DNA of 64,000 nucleotides from an uncultured Bacteroidales bacterium. GTDB taxonomy: Bacteria; Bacteroidota; Bacteroidia; Bacteroidales; UBA932. The stretch is from positions 1,532 through 65,531 of the forward strand of contig CAMXAU010000014.1 in assembly GCA_947179325.1 (NCBI GenBank), in the 5' to 3' direction. The position numbers were made by a program, and so were the translations under genes. The notes under the pieces were generated by a model. That model saw only the letters and a list, made by a program, of their open reading frames with translations, was not told the origin of the DNA and ran no database searches. Below are positions 19,691-34,469 of the stretch, one piece after another; the stretch's first letter is position 1, and each line of letters begins with the position of its first letter.

Positions 19691-19730
19691 TTTTGCAGTC
19701 ACCAATAATATAGACACTAAAACATATCAG

Positions 19731-20249: not shown

Positions 20250-21125
20250 ATGAATAATAGAAAGATCTATAGGATACTTGGTACTGTGGTGATGACAGTG
20301 GCAGCAATAGTGGTCCTTGCCGTTACAGTTCCGGTGTTCTTCTTTGACCAGTTCCTGATTGGCGGAAGTTCCATGGAGCCGACCTTGCATACCGGTGACC
20401 ATGTGCTTGTGAACAAACTGCTTCATGGAGCAAGAATCTACAGGACATATGATTTTTCTGTTCCTGAGATGGAATGTTTCCGTATGCCTGGCTTCAGGAA
20501 GGTGAGGCCTGGGGATATTGTCGTTTTTAACAATCCTGACGCCCATAAGGGCAAAGGGCTAAGTTTCAGGATAAATGATGTCTATGCCAAAAGATGCATA
20601 GGAAATCCTGGCGACACGGTGTCTGTGGTCAATGGCTTTTATTCCAATAGCAGCATTAAGGGGCCGATAGGTAACGTCATGAACCAGCAGGAATTGTCAG
20701 AAACGCCGGATTCTGTCTTGAATGGACATGGAGTGGTACTTAAGGCTGCCCAGTTTGCCGGACGTTATGGCAAGTGGACTATAAAGGATTTCGGACCGTT
20801 GAGGGTGCCGGCGAAAGGAGACATCGTAAAGTTGTCTTCCGGAAATGTCAGGCTATATAGTAAGATTATACGTTACGAGACCGGTATGGCTCCATCTGTA
20901 AAGGATGGTAAAGTGCTGTTTGGCGGTATCCCTGTTGATGAATACGAATTTACGCATGACTATTATTTTTTCGGGGGAGACAATGTTCTGGATTCGCGTG
21001 ACAGCCGTTATTTCGGCCTTGTTCCCGATGAATTCATAGTAGGAGTGGCAACCAGAGTGCTGTTTTCCCGTCCGGCAGCTACCGGCAAGACAGATCGGAG
21101 CAGATTCTGGAAAAAACTTCCCTGA
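20250..21125 (+). CDS. lepB: Signal peptidase I (S26), accessory long form
   Basis: N-terminal TM; catalytic Ser box GGSSMEPTL..GD; Lys box YAKRCIGNPGD; GDNVLDSRDSRYFG. Confidence 0.93.
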   Translation: MNNRKIYRILGTVVMTVAAIVVLAVTVPVFFFDQFLIGGSSMEPTLHTGDHVLVNKLLHGARIYRTYDFSVPEMECFRMPGFRKVRPGDIVVFNNPDAHKGKGLSFRINDVYAKRCIGNPGDTVSVVNGFYSNSSIKGPIGNVMNQQELSETPDSVLNGHGVVLKAAQFAGRYGKWTIKDFGPLRVPAKGDIVKLSSGNVRLYSKIIRYETGMAPSVKDGKVLFGGIPVDEYEFTHDYYFFGGDNVLDSRDSRYFGLVPDEFIVGVATRVLFSRPAATGKTDRSRFWKKLP

Positions 21126-21217: not shown

Positions 21218-23260
21218 TTGATAACCTATACCATTTTGAGACCACATAAATTAATTGCCGTAACTATAACCTTATGTGCGTTATGTTTTTCCATGCTCAG
21301 CTGTTCTGGACCTGATAGCCGTCTTGAACAGGTGCTGGCACTTGCTGGAAGCAACCGTCCGGAACTTGAAAAAGTGCTGAGGAGATATTCATCTCCTGAA
21401 GACAGCCTGAAATACCGTGCCGCAGTTTTTCTTATTGAGAACATGCCGGGATACGGGTATTATGAAGGGACGCCCCTTGACAATTTTCTTGAATATTACC
21501 CTCTGCTGCGGAGTGTCAGACTCAAGAAGCAGTCTCCTGATGTTGCAGTGGATTCCATAAACAGGAAATACGGAAAATTTGACCTCTCCGCTCTGCATTA
21601 TAAAGAGGATATCCGTACAGTCGATTCCGCATATCTCTGCAGGAATATAGAATGGGCTTTCAGGGTGTGGGAGGAACAGCCTTGGGGCAGGAATGTAGGC
21701 TTTAGGGATTTCTGTGAATATATACTTCCTTATCGTGTCGGCAATGAGACTCTTGCAGACTGGAGGGAAATGTACTATGAAAAGTATAACGGCATACTTG
21801 ACGGTCTGCGCAATTCTGGCTGTTCTGACCGTGAGGATCCTGCGGCTGCAGCCCGTATTATAACAGACTCCCTTACCGGGCCTAAGAAGATATTCTTCAC
21901 AAGTGCGGCTCCCGCAGCCCTGCCCCATATAGGGCCTGTGGCAGCCGATTACCGTAGCGGCAGCTGCCGCGATTTGGTGGACTTTGCCCTCTATGTCTGC
22001 CGTGCCTTGGGAATACCGTGTGCATCTGACTACATGCCTTTCAGAGGGGACGGGAATGTTGGGCATGAATGGGCGGCTTTTCTCGGGCGTGACAGCCTCT
22101 ACTGTCAGGATATGGGAAACCCTATGGTCAATTCAAGTAAAATCAGTACTCTCCGTAAGTTGAAAGTGTATCGCCGGACATTCAGTATAAACAACAGGCT
22201 CAATGATGTGGATATACCTGATTCTGACAGGCCTGAATTCCTGAAAAGACCATGTTTCGAAGATGTGACGCCGGCCTATGCCATAGATTTCCTGAAGACG
22301 CTTAAAGTCCCTGTAACTGAACTCTACAGTGGACTCAAGCCGAAGACGGTCTGTCTGTGCATGAGCAGCCGCTTTTCATGGGTTCCGGTAGCTGTCGGAA
22401 AGTTCTGCCGGGGTAATGCGGAGTTTGAGGATATAGACTGCAATACTCAGGTTATGAGGGTGGCTTCTGTCAAGGACGGCAAGGTCATGTTCCTGAGTGA
22501 CCCGTTCTATGTAAAGGAATCCGGCGACCTGCATTTCTACCGTGCCGGCAAAGAACTTCGGGACATTACGGTGTTCCGTAAGTTTCCTGAGCTTCAAGAG
22601 TTGTGGCTTCAGAGGCGTATGCTTGGTGGCGTCTTTGAGGGAAGCAACAGTCCGGATTTCACAATGAAAGATACGCTTCATATTATTACAGAACTTCCTA
22701 AGCGCCTTCTTGTCCCGGCCCGACCCCGGAAATCCGGCCCTTATCGGTATGTGCGGTATTTCGGTCCGAGGAACGGCTTCTGTAACATTGCTGACATGTA
22801 TGTCTACGGAGCAGACGGGGAACTGCTGACCGGAAAGCCTATAGGTGTTCCTGGCAGCTATAGTGGTGACAATAAGTACGACTATTGGAGTGCATTGGAT
22901 GGAAACGGTGAGACTTCATTTGATTCACGCACATCGTATGGGGCATGGGTGGGGCTTGATTTGGGCAAGCCAAAAGAGATTGGCAGGATTGTCTACACAG
23001 CAAGGAATCGGGACAATCATGTGCGCCCTGGAGACGAGTACGAACTGTTCTATTGTGACGGGAACTGGAAGTCTGCCGGAAGGGTAACGGCATCATCTGA
23101 TTCGATTCTTTACAAAGGCATTCCCAAAGGGGCACTCTATATTCTTGATAATCTTACTCGTGGTACTCAGATAAGAGTATTTTCATACGATGAAGGTGTT
23201 CAGGAATGGTTAAGACCACGTCAACAAGAGAATTTAGCCATTCAAAATGGCAATATTTAA
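21218..23260 (+). CDS. Transglutaminase-like domain lipoprotein with C-terminal F5/8 type C (discoidin) domains
   Basis: Lipobox MLSC; FCEYILPYR, GSCRD (Cys), RALGIP, GHEW (His); discoidin-like ALDGN...WVGLDLGKPKEI. Confidence 0.82.
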   Translation: MITYTILRPHKLIAVTITLCALCFSMLSCSGPDSRLEQVLALAGSNRPELEKVLRRYSSPEDSLKYRAAVFLIENMPGYGYYEGTPLDNFLEYYPLLRSVRLKKQSPDVAVDSINRKYGKFDLSALHYKEDIRTVDSAYLCRNIEWAFRVWEEQPWGRNVGFRDFCEYILPYRVGNETLADWREMYYEKYNGILDGLRNSGCSDREDPAAAARIITDSLTGPKKIFFTSAAPAALPHIGPVAADYRSGSCRDLVDFALYVCRALGIPCASDYMPFRGDGNVGHEWAAFLGRDSLYCQDMGNPMVNSSKISTLRKLKVYRRTFSINNRLNDVDIPDSDRPEFLKRPCFEDVTPAYAIDFLKTLKVPVTELYSGLKPKTVCLCMSSRFSWVPVAVGKFCRGNAEFEDIDCNTQVMRVASVKDGKVMFLSDPFYVKESGDLHFYRAGKELRDITVFRKFPELQELWLQRRMLGGVFEGSNSPDFTMKDTLHIITELPKRLLVPARPRKSGPYRYVRYFGPRNGFCNIADMYVYGADGELLTGKPIGVPGSYSGDNKYDYWSALDGNGETSFDSRTSYGAWVGLDLGKPKEIGRIVYTARNRDNHVRPGDEYELFYCDGNWKSAGRVTASSDSILYKGIPKGALYILDNLTRGTQIRVFSYDEGVQEWLRPRQQENLAIQNGNI

Positions 23261-23288
23261 TATTGTTAACTTTAAAATTTATCTTATT

Positions 23289-23657
23289 ATGAGAAAATTT
23301 TTTGTTTTATTGGCAGGAATGGTTCTATTCCTTGCTTCCTCTTTAACTTTCATTTATGTGAAAGGAGAAAATGATTCTGTGAACGATTTACTGTCAGCAA
23401 ATGTAGATGCTTTGGCGGATAATGAATCAAGTGGAGGGCTTGATGCAAATTATCACCGGATTGACTCCAAGTGTGAAGTCTTTGTATCTGCAGGAATGCA
23501 AATCGATATCTTTGGAATAGGAATAATAACTGCCAAAGCTGATGGTAAAATTGCTATTGATGGAAAGGTTGTCTGTCAATCTAAAGGTAATGAGACATGC
23601 CGTCCTGTCGAATGCTCTGATCTGTATAGTGTCATATTGCATGGAGGAGAGCGATGA
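23289..23657 (+). CDS. NVEALA-family secreted Cys-rich peptide (122 aa; NVDALA variant)
   Basis: Basic N-terminus, hydrophobic helix, polar spacer, LLSANVDALA (aa 34-43), then 79 aa with C62, C96, C104, C109. ATG at 23289 within ORF 23247. Confidence 0.8.
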   Translation: MRKFFVLLAGMVLFLASSLTFIYVKGENDSVNDLLSANVDALADNESSGGLDANYHRIDSKCEVFVSAGMQIDIFGIGIITAKADGKIAIDGKVVCQSKGNETCRPVECSDLYSVILHGGER

Positions 23658-24778
23658 GAAAATTTCCATATTTTTCTTTTGTACTTAGTCTGGTTGTCAT
23701 ATCATGTGTCAGCCAGACCAAGAATGAACCTAATGTTCAGGGGATATCTGTTGACATAAACAAACAGGCTGATATCAGCGAGTTCGTATCCTCGTTTGAC
23801 GGTTATGTCTGTCTTGAAACATACGAAGAATGCCTTGTCAATGAAATCCGGAAACTGAAGATGGTTGGTGATACTATTTATGTTGCCGATGATACTAAGA
23901 TTACGATGTTCAGTCGCAGGGATGGTTCTTATCTCGGCAAGATTCATAAGCATGGCCGGGGGCCTGGAGAATACATTACATTAACTGATTTTGATGTATT
24001 TGACTCCAGATTGTATGTGTTGTCGAATGTAGATCGCGAGATTATTATGTACAATGCCTCCGGTGATGTTCTGAGAATTATCAATACCGGTGAAGGATTC
24101 AGCAACTTGTCGGTGATAGACGAAGACAATATCTGGCTTTATTCTTCTGACAGCAATGACAGTATGTACAACTTCATTCTGATTGGTCCGGATGCCGATG
24201 TGAAAGCAAAGTACGACAAATTTTCTAAGAATCAGAGTTATACAATTGAAGACATTACATTCTGCGGTTCTGTTTCGGATACGTTGTATGTCTCCCAATA
24301 TTATGACAACATCGTGTATTCCTTGCATTATGACGGTTATGTTCCGTTATACCGTTTTGATATGAACCTCCGGAACACTGTGTCTCAGGAGGAGCTGTCG
24401 GCAACACCTTTAAGTGAACTGCACAAGACTTATAAATATAAGGAATCATTTCGTAGTATAATGCATATTGACAGAAACAGGCACACGTTATTTGCTGAAA
24501 CATGGTGCTTTCTTGACGGTCTGGCATTGAAGACCTGTTTTGTCAAAGCCGACATGGTGACCGGAAAATCTCATTTTTATATCTGCGGTTACGATGTTGA
24601 TGAGCGATTCCCATTGTTTGATCTATCTGACGTGATAGGGTACGACGGTAAGGTATTGATTTCATATCTTACTGCATTCTCAGCTAAAAAACATGGGAAA
24701 AAATATAAGATAGGCAATCTCGCTGACATATCCGAATACGACAATCCAGTCATCGTCTTTCACACTTTAAATTATTAA
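23654..24778 (+). CDS. 6-bladed beta-propeller lipoprotein, copy 1
   Basis: Lipobox VISC; LET..ECLV..I, GRGPGEY motif, C-terminal DNPVIVF; 4-nt overlap with the peptide gene. Confidence 0.85.
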   Translation: MRKFPYFSFVLSLVVISCVSQTKNEPNVQGISVDINKQADISEFVSSFDGYVCLETYEECLVNEIRKLKMVGDTIYVADDTKITMFSRRDGSYLGKIHKHGRGPGEYITLTDFDVFDSRLYVLSNVDREIIMYNASGDVLRIINTGEGFSNLSVIDEDNIWLYSSDSNDSMYNFILIGPDADVKAKYDKFSKNQSYTIEDITFCGSVSDTLYVSQYYDNIVYSLHYDGYVPLYRFDMNLRNTVSQEELSATPLSELHKTYKYKESFRSIMHIDRNRHTLFAETWCFLDGLALKTCFVKADMVTGKSHFYICGYDVDERFPLFDLSDVIGYDGKVLISYLTAFSAKKHGKKYKIGNLADISEYDNPVIVFHTLNY

Positions 24779-24781
24779 GCG

Positions 24782-25363
24782 GTGAACAGGTATCTATTCG
24801 GAATCCTTATTATGTTATCGTCTTTGTCGGTTTCTTGCTCGAACAGCCAAAATGATATGAAAGATGCTATTGTGGCATTTCGTCAGAAGCAGATAATATT
24901 ACCGGAAGAACTTGTCAAAGTGGAAAACAGGAATATATCGAAGAGTATATTGGAGCAGGCTGAGGTAAAGATGGTCATTTACTATGACTCTTTGGAGTGC
25001 AGCTCCTGTAAAGTCTCCCATCTGAAAGAGATGCAATATCTTTATGAACTTTCTGACAAGTTACCTATGTTAGAGGTTTATACGATTTTTTCTCCCTTGC
25101 AGCAGGAATATGACCAGACTATGGTAGATCTGATGATGTTAAATTTCCCATATCCGATATATGTAGACAATACTTGTTCTTTTGAAAAGAATAATCCTGA
25201 TTTTCCTGAAGACAAACGCTTTCATAGTTTTCTTTTGGATAAAACCGGACATCCGGTTTTTGTCGGTAACCCGACAGCAAGCGATAAGCTTTGGGACCTG
25301 TTCCTGAAAGTTATGGATAACCTTCAGGAAAATGATGGAGTCTATATAGATGTTTTGAAATAA
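24782..25363 (+). CDS. Thioredoxin-like lipoprotein with CxxC
   Basis: Lipobox SVSC; YYDSLECSSC; FLLDK...VFVGNP; GTG start. Confidence 0.7.
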   Translation: MNRYLFGILIMLSSLSVSCSNSQNDMKDAIVAFRQKQIILPEELVKVENRNISKSILEQAEVKMVIYYDSLECSSCKVSHLKEMQYLYELSDKLPMLEVYTIFSPLQQEYDQTMVDLMMLNFPYPIYVDNTCSFEKNNPDFPEDKRFHSFLLDKTGHPVFVGNPTASDKLWDLFLKVMDNLQENDGVYIDVLK

Positions 25364-25368
25364 ACGCT

Positions 25369-27282
25369 TTGAGACAATTTAAAAACATAATTCTATTGAT
25401 TGTATGGACGGTTGCGGCTGTTGCAATTGTCCATACAATTATTCTCGTGTCTAAGCCTGTAGAATTAATGCATTATACTACTGCAGGCCTATTGGTGTGT
25501 GCTACATCTCTGTTTATACCGACTATAATAATATTAGTGGTAGAACAGAAAGTTATACAATGGAACATAGTGGATATAGTTCTCGTCTGTCTGGTGATTC
25601 TTTATTGTATATCAGCATCAGTGAATAATCAACGTATTTCAATCTTTTGGATGCAGGAATTCTTTCCGTATGCTATCATGTATATATCCTTTAAGGTTCT
25701 TTTCGGCATAAAGAAAAGATTGGTAAGCTGGTTTGTATTTATCATATTTTGTATTTGGGGAATTTATGAAAGTGCTTTAGGATTGGGACAGATTTTCGGC
25801 AGTGTACCTTCTGGACATGAATCTTTTGTATTGACAGGCAGTTTTACTAATCCGGGACCATACGGAGGATTTATAGCTTTTCTTATGACTGTTTTGGTCG
25901 GATACTTGATTGAATATGGGAAATGTGTCAATGTTATATGTCGGCCTGTTATTGACGGGATGCGTACTATTGGATTAAAACGATTAACCAGTAGCCGCTA
26001 TGCCGCATGGTGTATATTCAGGTTATTGCCTATAATTTTAGCTGCTATTGCTGTGATTTTATGCATTGTAGTGTTTCCTGCCTCAATGAGCCGTGCTGGT
26101 TGGTTGGCATTTGCTTGTGGCTTAATGCTTTGTCTTATACGTGAAACAGGAATTATCAAGTCTGTATTAAGTCATAAAGCAATATCTGCCATTATGTTGA
26201 TTACCATATTGTCTGCTGTCGCGACGATATTCATGATGAAGAAAGATTCAGCAATCGGAAGATTCCATATCTGGAATATGGAGGCAAAGGCAATAATTGA
26301 AACTCCGTTTATCGGTACTGGACCAGGTGCTGTTCTTGGGCAATACGCAAAGATTCAAGAAAATTATTTTAAGGAAAACGAGTGTTCACAAAAAACTGTA
26401 AATGTTGCAGGTGCACCATCGTATGCATTCAACGAATATCTTAAAATAGGTATGGAGACAGGAATTGCAGGCACATTACTGGCTTTATGTGTCGTTGTTC
26501 TTGCAATTATACAGCTTTTACGCTCGAATGATATATTCGGTTATGGGCTTGTAGCAATAGCGGTTTTTGCATTTTTTTCTTATCCTTTAAGTGTAGCACA
26601 GTTTTCTATATGTATAGTTGCAATGCTTGCATTGTCAAGTTGCCATGATTCTGAAGTGCTTAAGTTACAAAAGAAAAAGAATACATATGTATTGTGCAAT
26701 TCATTGTTGACGATTTTTGTCATTGGTCTTGTGCTATTTGGAATAACTGATTTATATAAAGTTTATAAATCACGGGAAAAGGCATCTGATGATTGGCGGA
26801 TGGCAAGGCAATGGACTCTTATGAAAAAATATGATTGTGCTGCAGAAGAACTTGAGACATTATATCCGTACCTATTCTGGAGTTATCAGTATCTTTACGA
26901 ATATGGATACGCTTTGCATAGGGCTGGTATGTATGAAAAAAGCAATGTAATCTTTACTGAAGGCACTTTGATATCCGCAGATCCAATGTTTCATAACATG
27001 ATAGGGAAAAATTATATGGAAATGGGTTCTTATGATTATGCGGAAAAGGAGTTAATTAAGTCGCATTATACTGTTCCATGTCGTCTATATCCATTGGTCT
27101 TGCTTATGGAAATGTATATGGACATCAATTTGACAGAAAAGGCTAAAGAAGTAGGTGATAAAGTCTTGAATATGAAGATAAATAAAAAGAATGGAACTAT
27201 GATAGAACTTAGAAGGCGTGCAGAAGAATGTTTAAAGATTTTGAAACATGATGTTAATGAAATTAATGGCATTTCCAATTGA
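25369..27282 (+). CDS. O-antigen-ligase-like (Wzy_C) polytopic membrane protein with C-terminal TPR
   Basis: Many TM helices; SRAGWLA, DSAIGRFHIW, PFIGTGPG, AFNEYL; TPR-like YEYGYAL...NMIGKNY...AEKEL. Confidence 0.85.
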   Translation: MRQFKNIILLIVWTVAAVAIVHTIILVSKPVELMHYTTAGLLVCATSLFIPTIIILVVEQKVIQWNIVDIVLVCLVILYCISASVNNQRISIFWMQEFFPYAIMYISFKVLFGIKKRLVSWFVFIIFCIWGIYESALGLGQIFGSVPSGHESFVLTGSFTNPGPYGGFIAFLMTVLVGYLIEYGKCVNVICRPVIDGMRTIGLKRLTSSRYAAWCIFRLLPIILAAIAVILCIVVFPASMSRAGWLAFACGLMLCLIRETGIIKSVLSHKAISAIMLITILSAVATIFMMKKDSAIGRFHIWNMEAKAIIETPFIGTGPGAVLGQYAKIQENYFKENECSQKTVNVAGAPSYAFNEYLKIGMETGIAGTLLALCVVVLAIIQLLRSNDIFGYGLVAIAVFAFFSYPLSVAQFSICIVAMLALSSCHDSEVLKLQKKKNTYVLCNSLLTIFVIGLVLFGITDLYKVYKSREKASDDWRMARQWTLMKKYDCAAEELETLYPYLFWSYQYLYEYGYALHRAGMYEKSNVIFTEGTLISADPMFHNMIGKNYMEMGSYDYAEKELIKSHYTVPCRLYPLVLLMEMYMDINLTEKAKEVGDKVLNMKINKKNGTMIELRRRAEECLKILKHDVNEINGISN

Positions 27283-27465
27283 GACGAATACGAACTGTTC
27301 TATTGCGATGGTAACTGGAAATCGGCCGGCACTCTCTATATCCTGAACAATCTTACGCGCGGTAAAGACATAAGAGTGTTTTCCTGCGATGAAGGTGTGC
27401 AGGAATGGGACCGTCCGAAACGTAAAGAAAATCTACCATTGTATTATGATATTATTCATATTTAA
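27283..27465 (+). pseudogene. 3' remnant of a second transglutaminase-discoidin gene
   Basis: DEYELFYCDGNWKSAG-TLYILNNLTRGKDIRVFSCDEGVQEW versus DEYELFYCDGNWKSAG[17 aa]ALYILDNLTRGTQIRVFSYDEGVQEW at the end of 21218..23260. Confidence 0.9.
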
Positions 27466-27477
27466 ACTAAGTGAACA

Positions 27478-28605
27478 ATGAAAAGGGTATTCAACATTTC
27501 AGTATTATTGCTTGGGTTCATTGTGACAGCTTGTGTCAATGAGCCCAAGCGTCAGGACGATGTCCGGGTGATAACAGTGGATGTCACCAGGCAGGCTGAC
27601 ATCAGCAAGTTCGTGTCGTCCTTTGACGGATGTGTGCCTCTTGAGACGAATGAAGACTGTTTGGTTGATGAAATCCGGAAACTGAAGATGGTTGGTGATA
27701 CTATTTACATTGCCGATGATACTAAGATTATAATGTTCAGCCGCAGGGATGGTTCTTATCTCGGCAAGATTCATAAGCAGGGTCGGGGGCCGGGGGAATA
27801 CATTACATTAACCAATTTTGATGTATTTGATTCCAAATTGTATGTACTATCAAGTATTGATGAAGAAATTATAGAATATAGTTCTTGCGGTGATGTATTG
27901 AGAACAATTGATACAAAAGAAGGATTTAGAGATTTGTTGGTAATGAACAAGAACAATATTTGGCTATATTCTTCTGATAGTAATGATTTAATGTATAATT
28001 TCATATTGATTAACTCGGATTCAAACGTAAAGGCTAAATATGATTCATTTTCAGAAAATCAAAGTTTTATATTGTCAGATGATGTCTTTGTGAATCAGAG
28101 TCCGGATACATTATATACTGCTAAATATTTTGATAATACAGTCTATGTTTTACATAGTGATGGCTATTACCCGAAATACAGATTTAATATGAATCTTAAA
28201 CATCTAATATCTCAAGAAGAATTGTCATCAACACGCATAAAAGTTCTATATGATACATATAAATACAAAGAAACTTTGTGTCAGGTAATGCATATTGACA
28301 GAAATGAGAATACGCTGTTTGCGGAAATTTTATGTTTTCTTGACGGTCTGGCATTGAAGACCTGTTTTGTCAAAACCGACATGGTAACCGGGAAATCCCA
28401 TTTTTATATCCGTGGTAATGAAGTTGACGAACGATTTCCATTGTTTGATTTGTCAAGAGCTATAGGCTATGATGGCAAGACTCTGATTTCATATCTTCCG
28501 GCATCTTCGGCAAAAAGATTCCAACGGGAATATAAACTGGATTATTTTTCCGACATATCCGAATACGACAATCCAGTCATTGTCTTTCATACTTTAAATT
28601 ATTAA
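27478..28605 (+). CDS. 6-bladed beta-propeller lipoprotein, copy 2 (no adjacent peptide gene)
   Basis: Lipobox VTAC; colinear paralog of 23654..24778 with the same C-terminus DISEYDNPVIVFHTLNY. Confidence 0.87.
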   Translation: MKRVFNISVLLLGFIVTACVNEPKRQDDVRVITVDVTRQADISKFVSSFDGCVPLETNEDCLVDEIRKLKMVGDTIYIADDTKIIMFSRRDGSYLGKIHKQGRGPGEYITLTNFDVFDSKLYVLSSIDEEIIEYSSCGDVLRTIDTKEGFRDLLVMNKNNIWLYSSDSNDLMYNFILINSDSNVKAKYDSFSENQSFILSDDVFVNQSPDTLYTAKYFDNTVYVLHSDGYYPKYRFNMNLKHLISQEELSSTRIKVLYDTYKYKETLCQVMHIDRNENTLFAEILCFLDGLALKTCFVKTDMVTGKSHFYIRGNEVDERFPLFDLSRAIGYDGKTLISYLPASSAKRFQREYKLDYFSDISEYDNPVIVFHTLNY

Positions 28606-28608
28606 GCG

Positions 28609-28671
28609 ATGAACAAGTATATATTTGGAATACTTATTCTGTTTTACTGTGGGGTGTTGTGCACATGGTAG
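28609..28671 (+). pseudogene. 5' stub of a second thioredoxin-like gene
   Basis: MNKYIFGILILF versus MNRYLFGILIML, at the same 3-nt spacing after the propeller stop; homology ends after ~11 codons. Confidence 0.7.
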
Positions 28672-28808
28672 TTTGCGAACAGAAAAGACTCAATCATCAC
28701 TGGTTAGTGCATATGACTGTCCTTACTTTGGCCGTGGGCGATTGTGATAAGATTGCATACGGTGCCAATTCAAACTGATTTAAGGGTAATGCGTTGATAT
28801 ATAATATT

Positions 28809-30317
28809 ATGGTGGTAAGAAAGAAATTAATGATGATATATGTTGCCCTGCTGCTTGTCTGTCCGGTCATGCTGCTTCCTGCTCAGGAGAGAGGTGGAAT
28901 GCTTGCCGCAAGGATGAGCCTGGAGGAGGTAATTGATTCTGCCCGGACGCGTTCGGTGTCTGCACTGGCGGCCAAGGCTTCGTTCGTGTCGAGCTACTGG
29001 GCATTCCGTTCCTATAAGGCGAGCCGTCTGCCGTCACTCAATTTCTATGGAAATCTTGCCTCATTTGACAGGTCCCTGCGTCTGCTTCAGAACTATGAGA
29101 CCGGAGAAATGGTCTATACGGGCAATTACAACATGCAGAACAAGGTCGGGCTGTCCATAAAGCAGAATATCACTTTCACGGGAGGAAGTCTTTCGCTCTA
29201 TTCTGACCTTTCCCGTATAGACCAGTTCGGAAGCAATGCCCACAAGACTTATTATGCGCAGCCGATAACCCTTTATTACGAACAGCCTCTTCTTGCCTAC
29301 AACCGTTTCAAGTGGGACAGGAAAATTTCACCGAAGGAATACGAGAAGGCAAAGAGGACATATCTGGAGGCTATGGAGGCTGTTACAATCCGTGCCGTGA
29401 AGTATTATTTTGACTTGATGAAGGCCAAGCTCAACCACGAAAAGGCCGTGACCAACTATTCCAACACCCGTCAGATGTGCTCTGTGGCGGCAGAACGCAT
29501 GAGTCTTGGCAGCGTGACACGTGATGAATATCTCCAGCTTGAGCTGCGCATGCTTAACGACAGCATTTCAATCAATGAGTCGGCAATCAGGGTGAAGGAG
29601 GCGCAGATGACGCTCAATTCCCTTCTTGGCTACGGTGAAGGACTTGAGATTGAACCGGAAGTCACAGGAGAATTGCCTGATATCTGGATGGATTATGATG
29701 TGGTAATGTCCAAGGCTCTGGAGAATTCTTCATTCCTGCTTGACAATGAAATCCGGGTGCTCAATGCGGAGTCTGCCATTGCCCAGGCAAAGGCCAACAG
29801 AGGGGCTTCCGTCTCCCTGAGCGCAAGGTTCGGACTTAGCAATTCCAACGGGCATTTCCGTGAGACCTATACAGGCCTTCTCGACCAGGAAGTGGTGGGC
29901 ATCACATTCTCTGTTCCGATTTTCGACTGGGGACTTGGCAAGGGACGTGTGAAGAATGCCAAGGCAAAGGCGGCTGTGGTGAAGGCAGAAGTCGCACAGG
30001 CTGAGCAGGACTACCGTAGAAGTGTCTATACGGCAGTGGGACAGTTCAACAACCAGAGGCAGCAATGCATGGTTTCTGCACGTGCAAGCCGGATAGCACA
30101 GGAACGCTACTCGCTGATGATGGAGAAATTCCGTAGCGGACGGGCTTCCGTTACCGACCTGAATACGGCACAGAACGAGAATGATTCCGCAGTGAGCCGT
30201 TATGTGACTGACCTGAGCAATTTCTGGAACTATTATTATACTCTCAGGCAGCTGACCCTGTATGATTTCATCCGTAATGCGGATATTGATGTTGATTTTC
30301 TTGAACTTATAAGATAA
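28809..30317 (+). CDS. TolC-family outer membrane channel
   Basis: ORF 28794..30317; signal peptide; LSLEEVI-like start, VPIFDWG, two OEP-like coiled-coil repeats. Confidence 0.9.
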   Translation: MVVRKKLMMIYVALLLVCPVMLLPAQERGGMLAARMSLEEVIDSARTRSVSALAAKASFVSSYWAFRSYKASRLPSLNFYGNLASFDRSLRLLQNYETGEMVYTGNYNMQNKVGLSIKQNITFTGGSLSLYSDLSRIDQFGSNAHKTYYAQPITLYYEQPLLAYNRFKWDRKISPKEYEKAKRTYLEAMEAVTIRAVKYYFDLMKAKLNHEKAVTNYSNTRQMCSVAAERMSLGSVTRDEYLQLELRMLNDSISINESAIRVKEAQMTLNSLLGYGEGLEIEPEVTGELPDIWMDYDVVMSKALENSSFLLDNEIRVLNAESAIAQAKANRGASVSLSARFGLSNSNGHFRETYTGLLDQEVVGITFSVPIFDWGLGKGRVKNAKAKAAVVKAEVAQAEQDYRRSVYTAVGQFNNQRQQCMVSARASRIAQERYSLMMEKFRSGRASVTDLNTAQNENDSAVSRYVTDLSNFWNYYYTLRQLTLYDFIRNADIDVDFLELIR

Positions 30318-30321
30318 TAGG

Positions 30322-31407
30322 ATGGCTATGGATATTTATAGAACAATGATTGTTTCCGTTGCTGCATTTTCAGTAGCTTATGGATGTGGAGTCAAGGGTG
30401 GAAATGACGGAGGACGTGACGGAAGGCTCCAGTATACTCCTGAGGTGAATAAGGTGGAGGTCATGGAACTGAAGCGGTGCAGTTTCATGAGACAGCTGAC
30501 CGCCAATGGCAAGCTTGTCGCTGCAGGAAAGAGCTCCCTGTCGTTCAACACTTCCGGTACGGTGTCTGAGCTATATGTCAGCAATGGCCAGTCTGTCAGG
30601 GCTGGAGATGTGCTTGCCGAGCTGGAGCAGCGTGAGAAGAAGCTTGCATTGGAGGCGGCGGGCATTTCCCTGGAGAAGGCAGAGATAGATTTTTATGACG
30701 TTCTTGCCGGGCAGGGCTATCAGGCCAGGGATACGGCATCTGTTCCTAAGGATATCCTTGATATGGCAAAGATGCGTTCCGGCTACAGGTCAGCATTGAA
30801 CAGCTATCAGAGGGCGGCCATAGATTTTGAACGGACAGTGCTCAAGGCCCCTTTTGCCGGCAAAGTGGCTGACGTGAAGTTCAGGAAATATGACAATGTG
30901 TCTTCCGGGGCCTTCTGTATGCTGATTGACGACAGTATGCTTGATGTGGACTTCTCCGTCCTGGAGTCTGAATATAGCTTTGTAAAGGAAGGCCTTACGG
31001 TGTCTGTCGCTCCTTTCACCGGAGCCGGTGTGGCTCTGGAGGGGCATGTTACGGAAATAAACCCGACAGTGGACAAGTATGGGCTTGTGGCTGTGAGGGC
31101 ACGTGTCAGGAATGACGGCAGCCTTATTGACGGTATGAATGTGAGTGTGACGGTCTGCAGGGATGTCCCGGATGTGTTGGTGGTCCCTAAAAGTGCAGTG
31201 GTGATAAGGGATAATCTGGATGTGCTGTTCAGATATAAGGACGGAAAGGCAATGTGGACATATGTCCATGTGCTTATGTCCAACAGTGCCAGCCATGTGG
31301 TGACGGCAAATACGGACCGTGGGGCGGAGCTGAATGAAGGTGACATGGTCATTGTATCCGGAAACCTTAATCTCGGTGACGGCTCGTCCGTAGAAATCGT
31401 AGACTGA
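30322..31407 (+). CDS. RND periplasmic adaptor (membrane fusion protein)
   Basis: Lipoyl half motifs G.VSELYV.NGQ.V.AGD and LKAPFAGKV; LVVPKSAV. Confidence 0.92.
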   Translation: MAMDIYRTMIVSVAAFSVAYGCGVKGGNDGGRDGRLQYTPEVNKVEVMELKRCSFMRQLTANGKLVAAGKSSLSFNTSGTVSELYVSNGQSVRAGDVLAELEQREKKLALEAAGISLEKAEIDFYDVLAGQGYQARDTASVPKDILDMAKMRSGYRSALNSYQRAAIDFERTVLKAPFAGKVADVKFRKYDNVSSGAFCMLIDDSMLDVDFSVLESEYSFVKEGLTVSVAPFTGAGVALEGHVTEINPTVDKYGLVAVRARVRNDGSLIDGMNVSVTVCRDVPDVLVVPKSAVVIRDNLDVLFRYKDGKAMWTYVHVLMSNSASHVVTANTDRGAELNEGDMVIVSGNLNLGDGSSVEIVD

Positions 31408-31409
31408 CT

Positions 31410-34400
31410 ATGCTGAACAGACTGATAGACCGCCCTATAAGTGTCACGATGGTCCTCCTCGTGGTGCTTGTGCTTGGAATCACAGCAATCCGTCTTCTCC
31501 CTGTGTCCCTGATTCCTGATGTGGATGTGCCTTATATTACGGTTCAGGTGACAGCTCCGGACCTTTCCGCGCGGGAGATAGACGAGACCATCCTCAAGCC
31601 GCTCAGGCAGCAGCTTGTGCAGGTCGGTTCTCTTGAAGATGTAAGGAGCGAGGCTAAAGACGGAAGCGGTACCGTTGCCCTGACCTTCTCTCAAGGTGCT
31701 GACATGGATTATCTCTTTATCGAGGTCAACGAGAAAATTGACAGGTGCATGTCATCGTTCCGGGATGTGGAGAGGCCGAAAGTCCTCAAGTCCGGTGCTG
31801 CTGATATTCCGGCTTTCTATGTCAACATCACCCTCCGGGATGAAACGGTCCTGCCGGATGAGACTGATAGGGGACTGTTTCCGGTGTCCCAGTCGTTTCT
31901 TGACATGAGTTGTTTCGCTTCAGATGTAGTGGCCAAGAGGATTGAGCAGCTTAAGGAGGTCGCAATGGTTGACCTGAGCGGTGGTGTGCGTCCGGAGCTT
32001 CTGATTATCCCTGACAGGGATGCGCTGAAGAGATTGGGCATGACGGAGTCTGGTTTTGAGAATGTAGTCAAGGCTGCCGATATCCGCCTTGGCAGTCTGA
32101 CTATAAGGGACGGGGAGTACCGCTATAATGTGAAGTTCCGCTCTTTTGCTTCAGACAGGTCCGATATAGAGGACCTTTATCTGGAAGTTGGCGGTAAGGT
32201 GATGCAGGTCAAGGATATTGCCCGTGTGATAGAGCATCCTTCCAAGAGGACAGGGCTGGTGATGTCCGACGGCAGGGATGCTGTGACCATGGCAGTGATA
32301 AAGCAGAGCAGCGCCAGGATGGCAGAACTGAAGAAGGCTATGAACAGTCTGATGAAGCAGTTCCGCCGTGACTATCCTGAAATGGAGTTTACCGTGACGC
32401 GTGACCAGACAGAGCTTCTGGAATATTCCATTGACAATCTGATTCAGAATATAGTAGTGGGTATCCTGCTGGCCTGTCTGATAATTTTCCTTTTCATGAA
32501 GGATTTCAGGTCTCCTATGCTGGTGGTTTTCACCATTCCTGCCGCACTGGTGTTCTCGATGCTTGTCTTCTACGTGATAGGATTGACCATCAATATCATA
32601 TCACTTTCCGGCCTTGTGCTTGGAGTGGGAATGATGGTGGACAATACCATAGTGCTTATAGACAATATCACGGCACGGTGGCAGAGGGGAGAACAGCTGC
32701 GCCGTGCAGTTGTGAAAGGTACATCGGAAGTGCTTGCTCCTATGCTGAGTTCCATGCTCACTACATGTGCAGTATTCATCCCGCTGATTTTTATGAGCGG
32801 TATAGCCGGAGCCATGTTCTATGACCAGGCTATGGCAATAACAGTGGTGCTTGCCACATCGTATGTGGTGACTGTGACTGTCGTGCCTGTATATTACTGG
32901 TGGTGGTACCACAGATCCGATGCTTTTGTGCCGAACCGCTTTCTTGAACGGCTGTCTTCCGGGAAGGGTGTACTTATGTATGAAAAGGGTGTGGAATGGC
33001 TCGTGAGGCGAAGATTGGTCTGCTGGGGAGTCCTTGCGGTGTCGGTTGCCGGCATCATCGTGTGTTTTTCATATATGCCCAAGGAGAAGCTTCCCGAAGT
33101 TACCTACACGGACACTTTGTTGAAAATCAACTGGAACAGCCAGCTTGCGCTTGACAGGAATACAGAGCGTGTCAGACGTCTGGACTCTTTGGCGAAAGGC
33201 TACTCCATGCAGTCCACTGCGCTTGTGGGGATGCAGCAGTTTGTCCTCGGCCATAGCGGGGACCAGTCTGTTTCAGAGACTACGGTCTATCTTAAGGCTC
33301 ACGATGCCCATAGCCTTGGCAGGCTTAAGGATGAGATTTCTACATTTCTTATGAAGGAATATCCCGACTGCATATATTCCTTTGAGTCTTCGGGCAATAT
33401 TTTCGACATGGTCTTTTCCGAAAAGGAACCTGAACTTCTTGCGCGTTTCCGTCCTGTGTCTCTTCCGGAGCTTGATGTGGAGTCCATTCAGGGGCTGACT
33501 TCAGACCTTGCACGTAGTCTTCCATATCTGCATATACCTCCGGTCCCTCTCAAGACAGATGTCCTGTATGTCGCAGATCCTCAGGTGATGGCGCTTTACG
33601 GTGTGTCATACTCCCAGCTTGCAGGGGTTCTGAAGAATGCCCTCAATGAGAACCGTCTGTTCAATATTGTCCAGGGGGACAGGACATTGCCTGTAGTCAT
33701 GGGTGTTGACACAAGGGAGATGGACGATATTGTCCGGAACACCTTCCTGTATCGTGACGGTGCCGGACTGCCGGTGAGTGCTTTTATGAAGCAGACATAC
33801 GAAGAGGACCTCAAGAGTATAGTTTCCGGGGTGGAGGGCAGCTACTATCCTCTTCCGCTTGACCTCCCTGACAGCGATGTCTCCAGTGTCATGGATGACA
33901 TCCGCGAAGTGACATACAGGAACGGGAATTTCGATGTAAGCTTTACTGGGTCATATTTCAGCAGCAGGAAGATGGTCAGGGAACTTGCTCTTGTGCTTAT
34001 TGTGGCTGTAGTCCTTCTTTACCTCATACTTGCCTCTCAGTTCGAGTCCCTTGTCCAGCCTCTGATAATCCTGTCAGAAATTGTGATAGACATTTTTGTC
34101 TCACTTGCCGTGCTCTGGCTCTGTGGCGCATCCGTCAATCTCATGTCAATGATAGGCCTTGTGGTCGTGTGTGGCATCGTCATCAATGATTCCATCCTTA
34201 AGATTGACACCATCAACAGGCTGCGGCGTTCCGGAACGGGACTCTACCATGCCATTCTTCTCGGGGGGCAAAGAAGGCTGAAGGCTATAGTCATGACTTC
34301 ATTGACTACAATCCTTGCGGTATGTCCGTTTCTTGTCCGGGGTAATATGGGGGCGGACCTCCAGTATCCTATGTCACTTGTCATCATTGCGGGAATGATA

Positions 34401-34469
34401 ACAGGTACTGCTGTCAGTCTCTTCTTTGTGCCGATTGTCTATTATGAAATATACAGGAAGAGGAAATGA
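31410..34469 (+). CDS. RND transporter permease, subunit 1
   Basis: LIDRPISV start, LPVSLIPDVD, GMMVDNTIV, LASQFES, RRLKAIVMTSLTT. Confidence 0.92.
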   Translation: MLNRLIDRPISVTMVLLVVLVLGITAIRLLPVSLIPDVDVPYITVQVTAPDLSAREIDETILKPLRQQLVQVGSLEDVRSEAKDGSGTVALTFSQGADMDYLFIEVNEKIDRCMSSFRDVERPKVLKSGAADIPAFYVNITLRDETVLPDETDRGLFPVSQSFLDMSCFASDVVAKRIEQLKEVAMVDLSGGVRPELLIIPDRDALKRLGMTESGFENVVKAADIRLGSLTIRDGEYRYNVKFRSFASDRSDIEDLYLEVGGKVMQVKDIARVIEHPSKRTGLVMSDGRDAVTMAVIKQSSARMAELKKAMNSLMKQFRRDYPEMEFTVTRDQTELLEYSIDNLIQNIVVGILLACLIIFLFMKDFRSPMLVVFTIPAALVFSMLVFYVIGLTINIISLSGLVLGVGMMVDNTIVLIDNITARWQRGEQLRRAVVKGTSEVLAPMLSSMLTTCAVFIPLIFMSGIAGAMFYDQAMAITVVLATSYVVTVTVVPVYYWWWYHRSDAFVPNRFLERLSSGKGVLMYEKGVEWLVRRRLVCWGVLAVSVAGIIVCFSYMPKEKLPEVTYTDTLLKINWNSQLALDRNTERVRRLDSLAKGYSMQSTALVGMQQFVLGHSGDQSVSETTVYLKAHDAHSLGRLKDEISTFLMKEYPDCIYSFESSGNIFDMVFSEKEPELLARFRPVSLPELDVESIQGLTSDLARSLPYLHIPPVPLKTDVLYVADPQVMALYGVSYSQLAGVLKNALNENRLFNIVQGDRTLPVVMGVDTREMDDIVRNTFLYRDGAGLPVSAFMKQTYEEDLKSIVSGVEGSYYPLPLDLPDSDVSSVMDDIREVTYRNGNFDVSFTGSYFSSRKMVRELALVLIVAVVLLYLILASQFESLVQPLIILSEIVIDIFVSLAVLWLCGASVNLMSMIGLVVVCGIVINDSILKIDTINRLRRSGTGLYHAILLGGQRRLKAIVMTSLTTILAVCPFLVRGNMGADLQYPMSLVIIAGMITGTAVSLFFVPIVYYEIYRKRK

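What the first reader, a model, noticed from the sequence alone, without database searches (positions are those of the whole stretch)
27280..28671. Partial module duplication kept the propeller but lost the peptide: orphan-immunity signature
Seen: module 1 = TGase end, peptide, propeller, thioredoxin-like. Module 2 = TGase 3' remnant (51-bp in-frame deletion), 12-bp gap with no peptide, intact propeller, 11-codon thioredoxin stub. Established: polymorphic toxin and bacteriocin loci accumulate orphan immunity genes with flanking remnants. Inference: propellers are cognate immunity/receptor proteins, and copy 2 recognises another strain's peptide.
Basis: partly seen in the sequence, partly recalled or inferred. 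Interest (0 to 1): 0.68.

Follow-up and report, generated by a model that had tools for sequence, protein, structure and literature searches.

The report
Orphan propeller gene without its peptide
In an uncultured mouse-gut Bacteroidales strain, a decayed second copy of a peptide-plus-propeller gene cassette has kept only the propeller gene, while sister strains still carry the partner peptide; this is the pattern expected of a spare antidote gene, but no toxin or protective activity has been shown.

Summary
Window 27280-28671 holds a 3' remnant of the transglutaminase-like (TGase) gene lacking 51 bp, then a 12-bp spacer. An intact 375-aa propeller lipoprotein gene follows, then an 11-codon stub of the CxxC-lipoprotein gene.

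Public sequences give an allelic series:
- Relatives have one module: TGase, peptide, propeller, CxxC protein, Wzy-like protein, TolC.
- L030 has a complete tandem second module.
- L002, 99% identical to the window, has lost the second CxxC and Wzy genes but keeps a 122-aa NVEALA-leader peptide with a different core.
- The window strain has swapped that peptide plus the first ~38 propeller codons for the 5' end of an existing peptide-less propeller cassette. An independent assembly confirms this junction.

So "kept the propeller, lost the peptide" holds, as an allelic replacement rather than a simple deletion.

The immunity reading is only indirectly supported. Peptide cores and propeller centres fall into four matching types. 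Peptide-less propellers elsewhere are under purifying selection and carry centres 96-99% identical to peptide-linked ones in other strains. The fold is a generic binding propeller. The window event is too recent to show retention by selection, and nothing shows toxicity, binding or protection. No literature exists on the system.

The parts
20250..21125 (+). Context: dedicated S26 signal peptidase I paralogue at the head of the cluster
   Evidence: Pfam Peptidase_S26 at 99.6 bits; TIGR02227 at 92 bits.
21218..23260 (+). Context: transglutaminase-like lipoprotein with an F5/8-type-C / CBM-like C-terminal domain. It is the source of the remnant in module 2.
   Evidence: Weak Pfam hits to Transglut_core and F5_F8_type_C. 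PDB hit to CBM6. A GSCRD...GHEW motif is read from the sequence.
23289..23657 (+). Module 1 precursor (pep1, 122 aa): signal anchor, NVDALA leader, type-A core with 4 Cys. Its stop overlaps the propeller start (ATGA).
   Evidence: Pfam NVEALA E=3e-5, 24 bits, below the 27-bit cut-off. Alignment A2 shows an invariant leader and a variable core.
23654..24778 (+). Module 1 propeller lipoprotein (374 aa, type-A centre)
   Evidence: Pfam DUF5128 at 95.6 bits and DUF4934. Type matrix.
24782..25363 (+). Module 1 CxxC lipoprotein (193 aa, weakly thioredoxin-like)
   Evidence: No Pfam hit. Profile A3 against PDB finds 2M72, a thioredoxin-like protein, at E=0.012; C73 and C76 are invariant.
25369..27282 (+). 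Wzy_C / O-antigen-ligase-like membrane protein with a C-terminal TPR-like region. It ends at the duplication junction.
   Evidence: Pfam Wzy_C at 67.7 bits. Canonical relatives end ...ISNGGEYRE*.
27280..27282 (+). TGA stop at the Wzy|TGase' junction, a strain-specific G>T change. L002, L030 and runs X2, X3, X4 and X8 have GGA, so their Wzy ORF runs 44 codons into the remnant (681 aa).
27281..27465 (+). TGase 3' remnant: the left homology arm of the cassette, lacking 51 bp, with its canonical 3' flank up to CATATTTA
27466..27477 (+). 12-bp spacer and ribosome-binding region of the peptide-less cassette. The join with the TGase' flank lies at TATTT(T)AAA (27457-27468).
27469..27595 (+). Imported 5' block of propeller 2. 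It is 95-98% identical to L007, 90-100% to L026 and L028, and only 57-62% to L002's module 2.
27478..28605 (+). Propeller 2: an intact 375-aa lipoprotein gene with a type-B centre and no peptide gene upstream
27838..28378 (+). Variable central region of propeller 2 (type B). It is 97-100% nt identical to L003 and L002 and 50-88% to module 1.
28609..28671 (+). Stub of the CxxC-lipoprotein gene: the right homology arm. Homology ends at 28643 and the ORF runs on to a TAG.
   Evidence: Run X4 and L030 continue here into a full gene.
28644..28820 (+). 177 bp between the stub and the TolC gene with no counterpart in single-module relatives; origin unknown
28809..37600 (+). Context: TolC-like channel, HlyD-type adaptor and two RND pumps. 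They directly follow the cluster in all relatives examined.

Best explanation
SHOWN.
- The region is the decayed second copy of a tandemly duplicated cassette from an uncharacterised Bacteroidales envelope system.
- The system's gene order is: S26 signal peptidase, transglutaminase-like lipoprotein, NVEALA-leader precursor, six-bladed propeller lipoprotein, CxxC lipoprotein, Wzy_C/TPR membrane protein, then TolC, adaptor and 2x RND pump.
- The duplication joined Wzy codon ~637 to TGase codon ~604 at a G-x-E-Y microhomology.
- L030 and run X4 keep the whole second module.
- L002 and runs X2 and X8 keep the second-module peptide, and L002 has lost the second CxxC and Wzy genes. X3 carries the same peptide-type flank and G at 27280; its downstream end was not seen.
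- The window strain (run X1) then exchanged [peptide 2 + first ~38 propeller codons] for the 5' end of a circulating peptide-less propeller cassette. This most likely happened by homologous recombination, using the TGase 3' arm on the left and the propeller body on the right.

INFERRED.
- The precursor is Sec-inserted by its signal anchor.
- The dedicated S26 peptidase probably releases it after the invariant NV(E/D)ALA (an A-x-A site).
- It is probably oxidised to a ~78-aa protein with two disulfides, and probably exported by the adjacent RND/TolC pump.
- The propeller lipoprotein translated from the overlapping downstream ORF is a type-specific binding partner of the variable core.
- The leading functional model is a periplasmic immunity protein that neutralises a bacteriocin-like product.
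- On that model, propeller 2 (type B) is an orphan immunity gene against the type-B peptide still made by sister strains.

My confidence by step: evolutionary anatomy about 0.9; specific binding partner about 0.65; immunity about 0.4.
For: Anatomy:
- Homology and offsets within the window.
- L002 is 98.8-99.2% identical on both sides but has 468 bp, holding a 122-aa peptide, where the window has 95 bp.
- L030 has Wzy-TGase'-pep2-propeller followed by full second copies of the CxxC and Wzy genes.
- Single-module relatives L022, L024, L026, L027, L015 and L016 run straight into TolC.
- The same TGase-3'-to-propeller junction occurs in L028/L029 and in runs X9, X10 and X13.
- The window junction is confirmed in X1, while the peptide allele is present in X2, X3, X4 and X8.

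Pairing:
- Every long-type peptide gene is directly followed by a propeller gene, overlapping or abutting it.
- The leader (residues 1-44) is almost invariant while the core is 43-81% identical.
- Cores fall into types A, B, C and D. Propeller centres fall into the same four types: 96-100% identical within types B and C and the close type-A copies, 77-88% for the more distant type-A members (L014_a, L022), and 57-64% between types.
- The two sets of types matched in all linked pairs seen. Core distance against propeller distance gives r=0.93 for 8 pairs, which are not independent.

Orphans are real genes:
- Peptide-less propellers have dN/dS of 0.03-0.23 at dS of 0.04-0.3, similar to peptide-linked ones at 0.06-0.14.
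- Their centres are 96-99% identical to peptide-linked centres in other strains: L003b matches type B, L007b and L014b type A, L028b type C.

Fold and location:
- The Cys19 lipobox is invariant.
- The AF2 model has pLDDT 72. The best PDB match is 4RAA (BF0058, 'putative exported protein'), followed by BamB, NHL and BtuG binding propellers. No enzyme appears among the top matches.

Expression: metatranscriptome contigs of runs X20 and X21 span peptide, propeller, CxxC and Wzy of a related strain at depth ~45.
Against: - No experiment or known homologue shows that any NVEALA protein is toxic or that any DUF5128/DUF4934 propeller protects. The literature search found nothing.
- The window's propeller 2 differs from L002's by only 2 substitutions beyond codon 40. 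Its intactness therefore cannot be attributed to selection.
- Peptide cores show no positive selection (dN/dS 0.27-0.46).
- Co-variation of adjacent genes is expected from linkage alone, and the number of independent pairs is about 5.
- Strongly conserved propeller motifs (GRGPGEY, FPLFD, SEYDNPV[IL]VFHTLNY) could mark a catalytic or leader-binding site rather than an immunity surface.
- A 375-aa propeller is unusually large as an immunity protein for a ~78-aa product.
- The peptide model was unusable (pLDDT 49), so its fold gives no hint of toxicity.
- Export by the RND/TolC pump and cleavage after NVEALA rest on gene order and motif logic only.
Confidence: 0.45

Rival explanations
1. The propeller is a dedicated periplasmic maturation factor, chaperone or escort for its own precursor: it binds the leader and core, presents the precursor to the peptidase, TGase or oxidoreductase, or hands it to the RND/TolC pump. 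It is not an immunity protein. A peptide-less copy then either serves peptides encoded elsewhere, such as pep1, or is surplus.
For: - One propeller per precursor with overlapping ORFs, as in two-component lantibiotic clusters where each precursor has its own LanM enzyme (my own knowledge).
- Invariant motifs and a conserved first blade next to an invariant leader.
- The cluster is otherwise made of processing-type genes.
Against: - Peptide-less propellers are conserved at the same site across species under purifying selection.
- Their variable centres match peptide-linked types from other strains rather than the peptide of their own locus: the window has pep A with an orphan B, and L028 has an orphan C beside a type-B core.
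- Foldseek gives no enzyme-like match, only binding propellers.
Confidence: 0.2
2. Module 2 in this strain is simply a duplicate in neutral decay. The propeller ORF is intact only because the last rearrangement is very recent, and it has no function of its own here.
For: - Stepwise loss of the second CxxC and Wzy genes and then the peptide.
- Only 2 substitutions separate it from L002's copy beyond codon 40.
- The allele was seen at this position in only one of 19 runs.
- The remnant and stub are non-functional debris, and 177 bp are of unknown origin.
Against: - The replacement brought in a complete start region in frame and left no frameshift.
- Equivalent peptide-less propellers are maintained elsewhere (dN/dS 0.03-0.23).
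- The same TGase-to-propeller junction is established in other genomes.
- The propeller is the only module-2 gene that survived two separate rearrangements.
Confidence: 0.2
3. Peptide and propeller form a strain-specific ligand-receptor pair for signalling, kin recognition or surface attachment. Peptide-less propellers are 'solo' receptors that detect neighbours' peptides.
For: - Discrete matched types and solo copies.
- A binding-type propeller fold similar to BamB, NHL and BtuG.
Against: - The propeller is a bare lipoprotein with no signalling domain.
- No regulator is embedded in the cluster. The neighbouring hybrid two-component gene is divergent and looks PUL-associated.
- Translational coupling in 1:1 arrangement fits neutralisation better than sensing.
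Confidence: 0.1

Closest known systems
Orphan immunity genes / acquired interbacterial defence (AID) clusters of gut Bacteroidales (T6SS immunity; bioRxiv 10.1101/471110, PMC12247911; titles and abstracts as listed)
   Same: Immunity-like genes are kept without the cognate toxin gene. They match toxin-linked copies in other strains of the same habitat, and they evolve and exchange quickly.
   Different: There is no T6SS and no known toxin domain. The gene family is different (DUF5128/DUF4934 propeller lipoprotein). Here the orphan arose in situ by decay of a tandem duplicate and cassette exchange, not in a mobile immunity array. Protection is unproven.
Orphan toxin-tip/immunity cassettes downstream of rhs and cdiA genes (my own knowledge; not tested here)
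   Same: A fragment of the conserved upstream gene's 3' end precedes a displaced variable module, and conserved flanks act as recombination arms.
   Different: The remnant comes from a neighbouring non-toxin gene (TGase-like), and the variable payload is a separate small precursor gene. In the window the payload has gone and only the downstream partner remains.
Leader-bearing bacteriocin plus adjacent immunity gene operons (class II bacteriocins and bacteroidetocins; my own knowledge, review PMC11901371 listed)
   Same: Invariant leader, variable Cys-containing core, and a partner gene immediately downstream.
   Different: - The leader is a Sec-type signal anchor plus NVEALA rather than a double-glycine leader.
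- There is no C39/ABC exporter. Instead the cluster has an S26 peptidase, TGase-like, CxxC and Wzy_C proteins and an RND/TolC pump.
- The mature product is ~78 aa.
- The partner is a 375-aa propeller lipoprotein.
PDB 4RAA (BF0058, 'putative exported protein', Bacteroides fragilis) and Pfam DUF5128/DUF4934
   Same: Same family by HMM, and the closest fold (TM 0.67-0.70, E=2e-15).
   Different: It is a structural-genomics entry with no assigned function, and it is only 17% identical.
Binding propeller lipoproteins BamB and BtuG
   Same: Lipoprotein propellers of the Gram-negative envelope that bind proteins or ligands; they are next-best fold matches.
   Different: TM is only about 0.4. They have eight or seven blades. 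There is no sequence relationship and the gene context is different.

Membership tests
Pfam DUF5128 / DUF4934 six-bladed beta-propeller (BF0058-like lipoproteins) | HMM score above the curated cut-off | tested here: met
   DUF5128 at 103.7 bits (cut-off 22.9) and DUF4934 at 40.1 bits (cut-off 27) for propeller 2.
Pfam DUF5128 / DUF4934 six-bladed beta-propeller (BF0058-like lipoproteins) | Propeller fold resembling the family's solved structure | tested here: met
   AF2 model with pLDDT 72 and about 24 strands forming six blades. The top Foldseek hit is 4RAA, E=1.9e-15, TM 0.67/0.70.
Pfam DUF5128 / DUF4934 six-bladed beta-propeller (BF0058-like lipoproteins) | Lipoprotein signal (hydrophobic stretch followed by an invariant Cys) | tested here: met
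   Cys19 is invariant in 22 sequences, in the context ...IVTAC / VVISC. No dedicated predictor was run.
Orphan immunity gene of a polymorphic toxin or bacteriocin locus | The same gene type sits directly downstream of a variable effector gene in other strains | tested here: met
   L002 and L030 have a type-B peptide followed by a type-B propeller at the homologous site.
Orphan immunity gene of a polymorphic toxin or bacteriocin locus | Flanking remnants or homology arms of the parent module | tested here: met
   TGase 3' remnant at 27281-27465 and CxxC-gene stub at 28609-28643.
Orphan immunity gene of a polymorphic toxin or bacteriocin locus | Effector and partner co-vary in discrete specificity types | tested here: met
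   Four core types and four propeller-centre types were concordant in all linked pairs. The sample is small and the genes are linked.
Orphan immunity gene of a polymorphic toxin or bacteriocin locus | Orphan copies maintained by purifying selection | tested here: inconclusive
   Met for peptide-less propellers in L003, L007, L014, L017 and L020 (dN/dS 0.03-0.23). Not assessable for the window copy, which has 2 substitutions since the event.
Orphan immunity gene of a polymorphic toxin or bacteriocin locus | The upstream gene product is toxic to cells lacking the partner | not testable with these tools
   No homologue of known function. The peptide model has pLDDT 49. No literature was found.
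Orphan immunity gene of a polymorphic toxin or bacteriocin locus | The partner binds and neutralises the effector and protects | not testable with these tools
   No complex prediction or assay was available.
Pfam NVEALA (PF14055) precursor | HMM score above the cut-off and an NVEALA motif after an N-terminal hydrophobic segment | tested here: inconclusive
   pep1 scores 24.0 bits against a 27-bit cut-off (E=3e-5). The NVDALA motif is present and invariant in 9 homologues. In module 2 of the window no such ORF exists.
RiPP precursor with a cognate modifying enzyme | Conserved leader with variable core | tested here: met
   Alignment A2 and the pairwise comparisons.
RiPP precursor with a cognate modifying enzyme | The partner protein belongs to a recognisable modifying-enzyme family | tested here: not met
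   No enzyme family was found in Pfam, NCBIfam or PDB, and the fold matches are binding propellers.
Thioredoxin-fold (TlpA-like) oxidoreductase (the stub's parent gene) | Family HMM match and a conserved CxxC | tested here: inconclusive
   No Pfam or NCBIfam hit even at E<=10. The profile against PDB finds thioredoxin-like chains at E=0.012-0.45, with the CxxC aligned and invariant.

The most novel reading that the evidence does not exclude
NVEALA-leader small proteins and their downstream propeller lipoproteins form a previously undescribed polymorphic effector/immunity system of gut Bacteroidales. The effector is matured in the periplasm by a dedicated S26 peptidase, a transglutaminase-like lipoprotein, a CxxC lipoprotein and a Wzy_C/TPR protein, and it is exported through an RND/TolC pump. 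Specificity types are shuffled between strains by recombination on conserved arms, and peptide-less propellers serve as orphan immunity.
Probability: 0.3. Interest if true: 0.85.

Novelty: new variant of a known kind. Interest (0 to 1): 0.62.

Why it matters
NVEALA, DUF5128 and DUF4934 are Pfam families with no assigned function. Full-text searches found no paper on NVEALA or DUF4934/DUF5128, and only unrelated mentions for the other names and accessions tried.

This locus offers a natural allelic series: single module, full duplicate, duplicate without processing genes, and propeller only. It also offers four matched peptide and propeller types. Together these turn "what are these genes for?" into a directly testable 4x4 binding and cross-protection experiment.

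If the immunity reading holds, it would add a new secreted-toxin family, a new immunity fold and an unusual Sec plus RND/TolC export route to the known antagonism repertoire of gut Bacteroidales. It would also explain paralogous peptide/propeller arrays like the one seen in L007. If it fails, the same data still define a recombining cassette system whose pairing logic needs another explanation.

Tried and rejected
- Assembly artefact: rejected. An independent Logan contig of X1 spans the junction with 0 differences.
- Simple deletion of the peptide: rejected. The first ~120 bp of propeller 2 are only 57-62% identical to L002's but 95-98% identical to L007's, so this was a replacement.
- L002's peptide arising by recent gene conversion from its own module 1: rejected. 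pep2 is only 71% identical to pep1, and only the peptide tail plus the propeller 5' end are 92-97% alike.
- Illegitimate join arising in the window lineage: unnecessary. L028/L029 and runs X9, X10 and X13 already carry the same junction.
- Peptide structure: AF2 gave pLDDT 49, so no fold search was attempted.
- Genome and metagenome scans with the propeller profile returned only 3 and 5 loci. The plasmid collection gave one weak hit.
- The promoter and terminator scan was at chance level, and Bacteroidetes promoters are not covered by it.
- Six literature searches returned nothing on the system: NVEALA, the DUF names, the Pfam accessions, and propeller/immunity/bacteriocin term combinations.
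- Mapping variable residues onto the propeller faces was not possible because the model coordinates are not exposed.

Full report
WHAT IS THERE

The window is contig JAIDOH010000012.1 of MAG GCA_029063375.1, an uncultured Bacteroidales genome. Runs that hold this stretch are mouse-gut, gut and manure metagenomes.

On the + strand the locus reads:
- S26 signal peptidase I, 20250-21125.
- Transglutaminase-like lipoprotein with an F5/8-C-type domain, 21218-23260.
- A 122-aa precursor with a signal anchor and an NVDALA motif, 23289-23657.
- A DUF5128/DUF4934 six-bladed propeller lipoprotein, 23654-24778. Its start overlaps the precursor's stop.
- A 193-aa CxxC lipoprotein, 24782-25363.
- A Wzy_C (O-antigen-ligase-like) membrane protein, 25369-27282.
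- The region in question.
- TolC, an HlyD-type adaptor and two RND pumps.

G+C falls to 37-39% between 23000 and 29000, against about 50% in the flanks.

Repeat finding and BLAST show four things:
- 27281-27329 and 27334-27408 are copies (88% and 81%) of the TGase 3' end, with 51 bp (17 codons) missing.
- A 12-bp spacer follows.
- 27478-28605 is an intact 375-aa propeller gene, 68% aa identical to propeller 1.
- Homology continues to 28643, which is the first ~11 codons of the CxxC gene. The ORF then runs on to a stop at 28671.

No NVEALA-type ORF lies in the gap. An independent Logan contig from run X1 covers 26900-27697 without a single difference, so the junction is not a MAG mis-join.

The label "thioredoxin-like" is only weakly supported. 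There is no Pfam or NCBIfam hit. A profile of 30 homologues reaches thioredoxin-like PDB chains at E=0.012-0.45, and the CxxC pair is invariant.

AN ALLELIC SERIES IN PUBLIC DATA SHOWS HOW IT AROSE

Stage 0, single module. L022, L024, L026 and L027, and more distantly L015 and L016, have one module that runs directly into TolC. Their Wzy protein ends ...ISNGGEYRE*.

Stage 1, full tandem duplicate. L030 reads Wzy-3'-end | TGase remnant - peptide - propeller - full CxxC gene - full Wzy gene. The junction is ...ISNG|DEYELF, at a G-x-E-Y microhomology between the Wzy end and TGase ...PGDEYELF. Run X4 also continues from 28643 into a full CxxC gene.

Stage 2, processing genes lost. L002 is 98.8-99.2% identical to the window over 9.6 kb on the left and 10.4 kb on the right. 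It has the same remnant, the same stub and the same 177 bp before TolC. It carries a 122-aa peptide gene (L002 9636-10004) overlapping the propeller start. Runs X2, X3, X4 and X8 carry the peptide-type flank after 27439, and those whose contigs cover 27280 show G there.

Stage 3, the window and run X1. The 468 bp of L002 that hold the peptide and the first ~32 propeller codons are replaced by 95 bp.

Of 19 runs that hold parts of this stretch, only X1 holds all words across the junction at this position.

A further difference is a G>T change in the window. It turns GGA into the TGA stop at 27280-27282, so the Wzy ORF no longer reads 44 codons into the TGase remnant.

THE LOSS WAS A CASSETTE EXCHANGE, NOT A PLAIN DELETION
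- The first ~120 bp of propeller 2 are only 57-62% identical to L002's copy. They are 95-98% identical to L007, 90-93% to L003 and 90-100% to L026 and L028. From about 27595 onward the gene is 98-100% identical to L002's.
- In L003, L005, L007, L014 and L017-L020 this 5' type heads a propeller gene with no peptide upstream. That gene sits directly after a Big_2/F5-8C gene of a polysaccharide-utilisation locus.
- L028 and L029 carry the very junction seen in the window: TGase 3' end ...CATATTTAAAC[C/T]AAGTGAACA|ATG, then the propeller with no peptide. Short contigs of runs X9, X10 and X13 span it too.
- The window allele is therefore most simply explained by homologous recombination with such a donor, crossing over in the TGase arm and in the propeller body.
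- A second peptide presence/absence polymorphism of the same kind separates L020 (propeller-CxxC-Wzy) from L014/L019 (propeller - CxxC fragment - TGase remnant - peptide - propeller - CxxC - Wzy).

WHAT THE GENES LOOK LIKE

Peptides:
- The nine long-type peptides found among 5.8 billion proteins share an almost invariant leader, MRKIFVLLAGMVLFLASSLTFIYVKGENDSVNDLLSANVDALAD, and four invariant Cys.
- Their cores fall into four groups: A (60-81% within), B (94-98%), C (92%) and D. Identity between groups is 43-62%.
- Core dN/dS is 0.27-0.46. The leader and tail are lower.

Propellers:
- They are mosaics. The 5' third and the last ~15 codons are conserved or exchanged between copies.
- The centre (alignment columns 120-300) falls into four discrete types. 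Identity is 96-100% within types B and C and among the close type-A copies, 77-88% for the more distant type-A members (L014_a, L022), and 57-64% between types.

Pairing was concordant in every linked case:
- Type A: window module 1, L014, L022.
- Type B: L002 module 2, L030.
- Type C: L026/L027.
- Type D: L024/L025.
- An RNA-derived contig in X20/X21 joins an A-type leader, a core unlike A (it did not align at 92% or more), and a B-type propeller centre. This matches what L028's peptide P0026 (A leader, B core) predicts.

Peptide-less propellers:
- They carry the same centre types: L003b is B, L007b and L014b are A, L028b is C, and the window's module 2 is B.
- They are under purifying selection. 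dN/dS is 0.15 for L003b against L017b, 0.23 for L007b against L014b, and 0.03 for L014b against L020b. Peptide-linked copies give 0.06-0.14.

Structure:
- The AF2 model of propeller 2 (pLDDT 72) is a six-bladed propeller.
- Its only close structural relative is 4RAA (BF0058, "putative exported protein"). BamB, NHL and BtuG-type binding propellers follow. No enzyme appears among the top matches.
- Cys19 after the hydrophobic N-terminus is invariant, so these are lipoproteins.

MOST LIKELY MECHANISM (INFERENCE)
- Conserved leader plus variable core, one translationally coupled partner per precursor, and matched discrete types together point to a specific protein-protein pair.
- The system's parts are all extracytoplasmic. 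They are a dedicated S26 peptidase, a TGase-like lipoprotein, a CxxC lipoprotein, a Wzy_C/TPR membrane protein and an RND/TolC pump.
- The invariant NV(E/D)ALA provides an A-x-A cleavage site for the S26 peptidase. The CxxC lipoprotein could form the two disulfides.
- The pump stays adjacent even in relatives whose propellers are only 45% identical.
- I therefore propose Sec insertion, periplasmic maturation and pump-mediated release of a ~78-aa product.
- The propeller acts as its type-specific periplasmic binder. The most economical role for that binder is self-protection (immunity).
- On that reading the window strain makes type A, no longer makes type B, and keeps the type-B binder. Sister strains in the same study still make type B: X2 and X8 are from the same study as X1.

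LIMITS
- Nothing here shows toxicity, binding or protection.
- The window's propeller 2 has had no time to decay: there is 1 synonymous and 1 non-synonymous change beyond codon 40.
- Co-variation of neighbouring genes is expected from linkage, and the number of independent pairs is small.
- The conserved propeller motifs could mark a leader-binding or catalytic site.
- The peptide model was unusable.
- The rivals remain open: maturation factor or chaperone, neutral decay, and ligand-receptor pair.

COMPARISON WITH KNOWN SYSTEMS
- In logic the locus resembles orphan immunity genes of Bacteroidales T6SS systems (papers listed).
- It also resembles the orphan cassettes behind rhs/cdiA genes and leader-bearing bacteriocin/immunity operons (both from my own knowledge).
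- It shares none of their defining proteins.
- Membership in DUF5128/DUF4934 is met. Membership in "orphan immunity" is met for the genomic criteria and untestable for the functional ones.
- Full-text searches found no paper on NVEALA or DUF4934/DUF5128. The other names and accessions gave only unrelated mentions: one phylogeny paper for BF3164, Plasmodium gene identifiers for PF14055, and one outer-membrane-tethering preprint for PF15869.

VERDICT
- The evolutionary reading is supported and corrected: a tandem duplicate, stepwise decay, and peptide loss by cassette exchange.
- The immunity reading is plausible but unproven.

Noticed in passing
window 27280-27282: The stop codon of the Wzy-like gene is a strain-specific G>T change. 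L002, L030 and runs X2, X3, X4 and X8 have GGA there, so their Wzy ORF runs 44 codons into the TGase remnant (681 aa against 637 aa). Canonical relatives end ...ISNGGEYRE*.
   Followed up: yes
window 28809-37600; L015, L016, L024, L026, L027: A TolC / HlyD-adaptor / 2x RND pump operon directly follows the peptide-propeller-CxxC-Wzy genes, even in relatives whose propellers are only 45% identical. The pump may be the exporter of the system.
   Followed up: partly
window 19218-20174: A 318-aa ORF upstream of the S26 gene has a C-terminal 125 aa that are 36% identical to residues 61-185 of the Wzy-like protein. This looks like an older, truncated Wzy-like remnant. In L002 the same region is split into two ORFs.
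   Followed up: partly
window 23000-29000: G+C drops to 36-39% across peptide, propeller, CxxC, Wzy and module 2, against about 50% on both sides. This suggests the cassette region is exchanged horizontally or has a different origin from the genome backbone.
   Followed up: no
window 28644-28820: The 177 bp between the stub and the TolC start have no counterpart in single-module relatives, where Wzy's stop is about 25 bp from TolC. Their origin is unknown.
   Followed up: partly
L007 10001-21128; L003, L017, L018: Next to a polysaccharide-utilisation locus lies a long array of other NVEALA peptide classes (78-95 aa, NVEALT/NVEALS). Each is followed by its own propeller (DUF5128 or TolB_like type). 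The array also holds another TGase gene and a TGase 3' remnant that lacks the 51-bp deletion, so partial-module duplication recurs.
   Followed up: partly
L014/L019 versus L020: This is a second peptide presence/absence polymorphism. L020 has propeller-CxxC-Wzy with no long peptide. L014 and L019 have propeller - CxxC fragment - TGase remnant - peptide - propeller - CxxC - Wzy. The difference is consistent with recombination between the two propeller copies.
   Followed up: partly
L014 15525-15873, L019 13525-13873, L020 11737-12085: Two overlapping NVEALS-motif ORFs in different frames lie downstream of Wzy. They look like a frameshifted or chimeric peptide gene ahead of a distant propeller.
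   Followed up: no
L018 2855-3992: The peptide-less propeller here aligns in two overlapping pieces (residues 1-351 and 342-375). This is a possible frameshift, or an assembly error on a contig with 2.6x coverage.
   Followed up: no
L002 9943-10100 versus L002 5740-5900; window 23600-23790: The peptide tail plus the first ~100 bp of the propeller are 92-97% nt identical between modules whose remaining parts are 50-75% identical. This is either a gene-conversion tract or a conserved coupling region.
   Followed up: partly
window 23174-26593 and 27537-28581 (RNA runs X20, X21): Mouse-gut metatranscriptome contigs (depth ~45) join an upstream propeller, then peptide, propeller, CxxC and Wzy of a related strain. 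The locus appears to be transcribed in vivo, although DNA carry-over cannot be excluded.
   Followed up: partly
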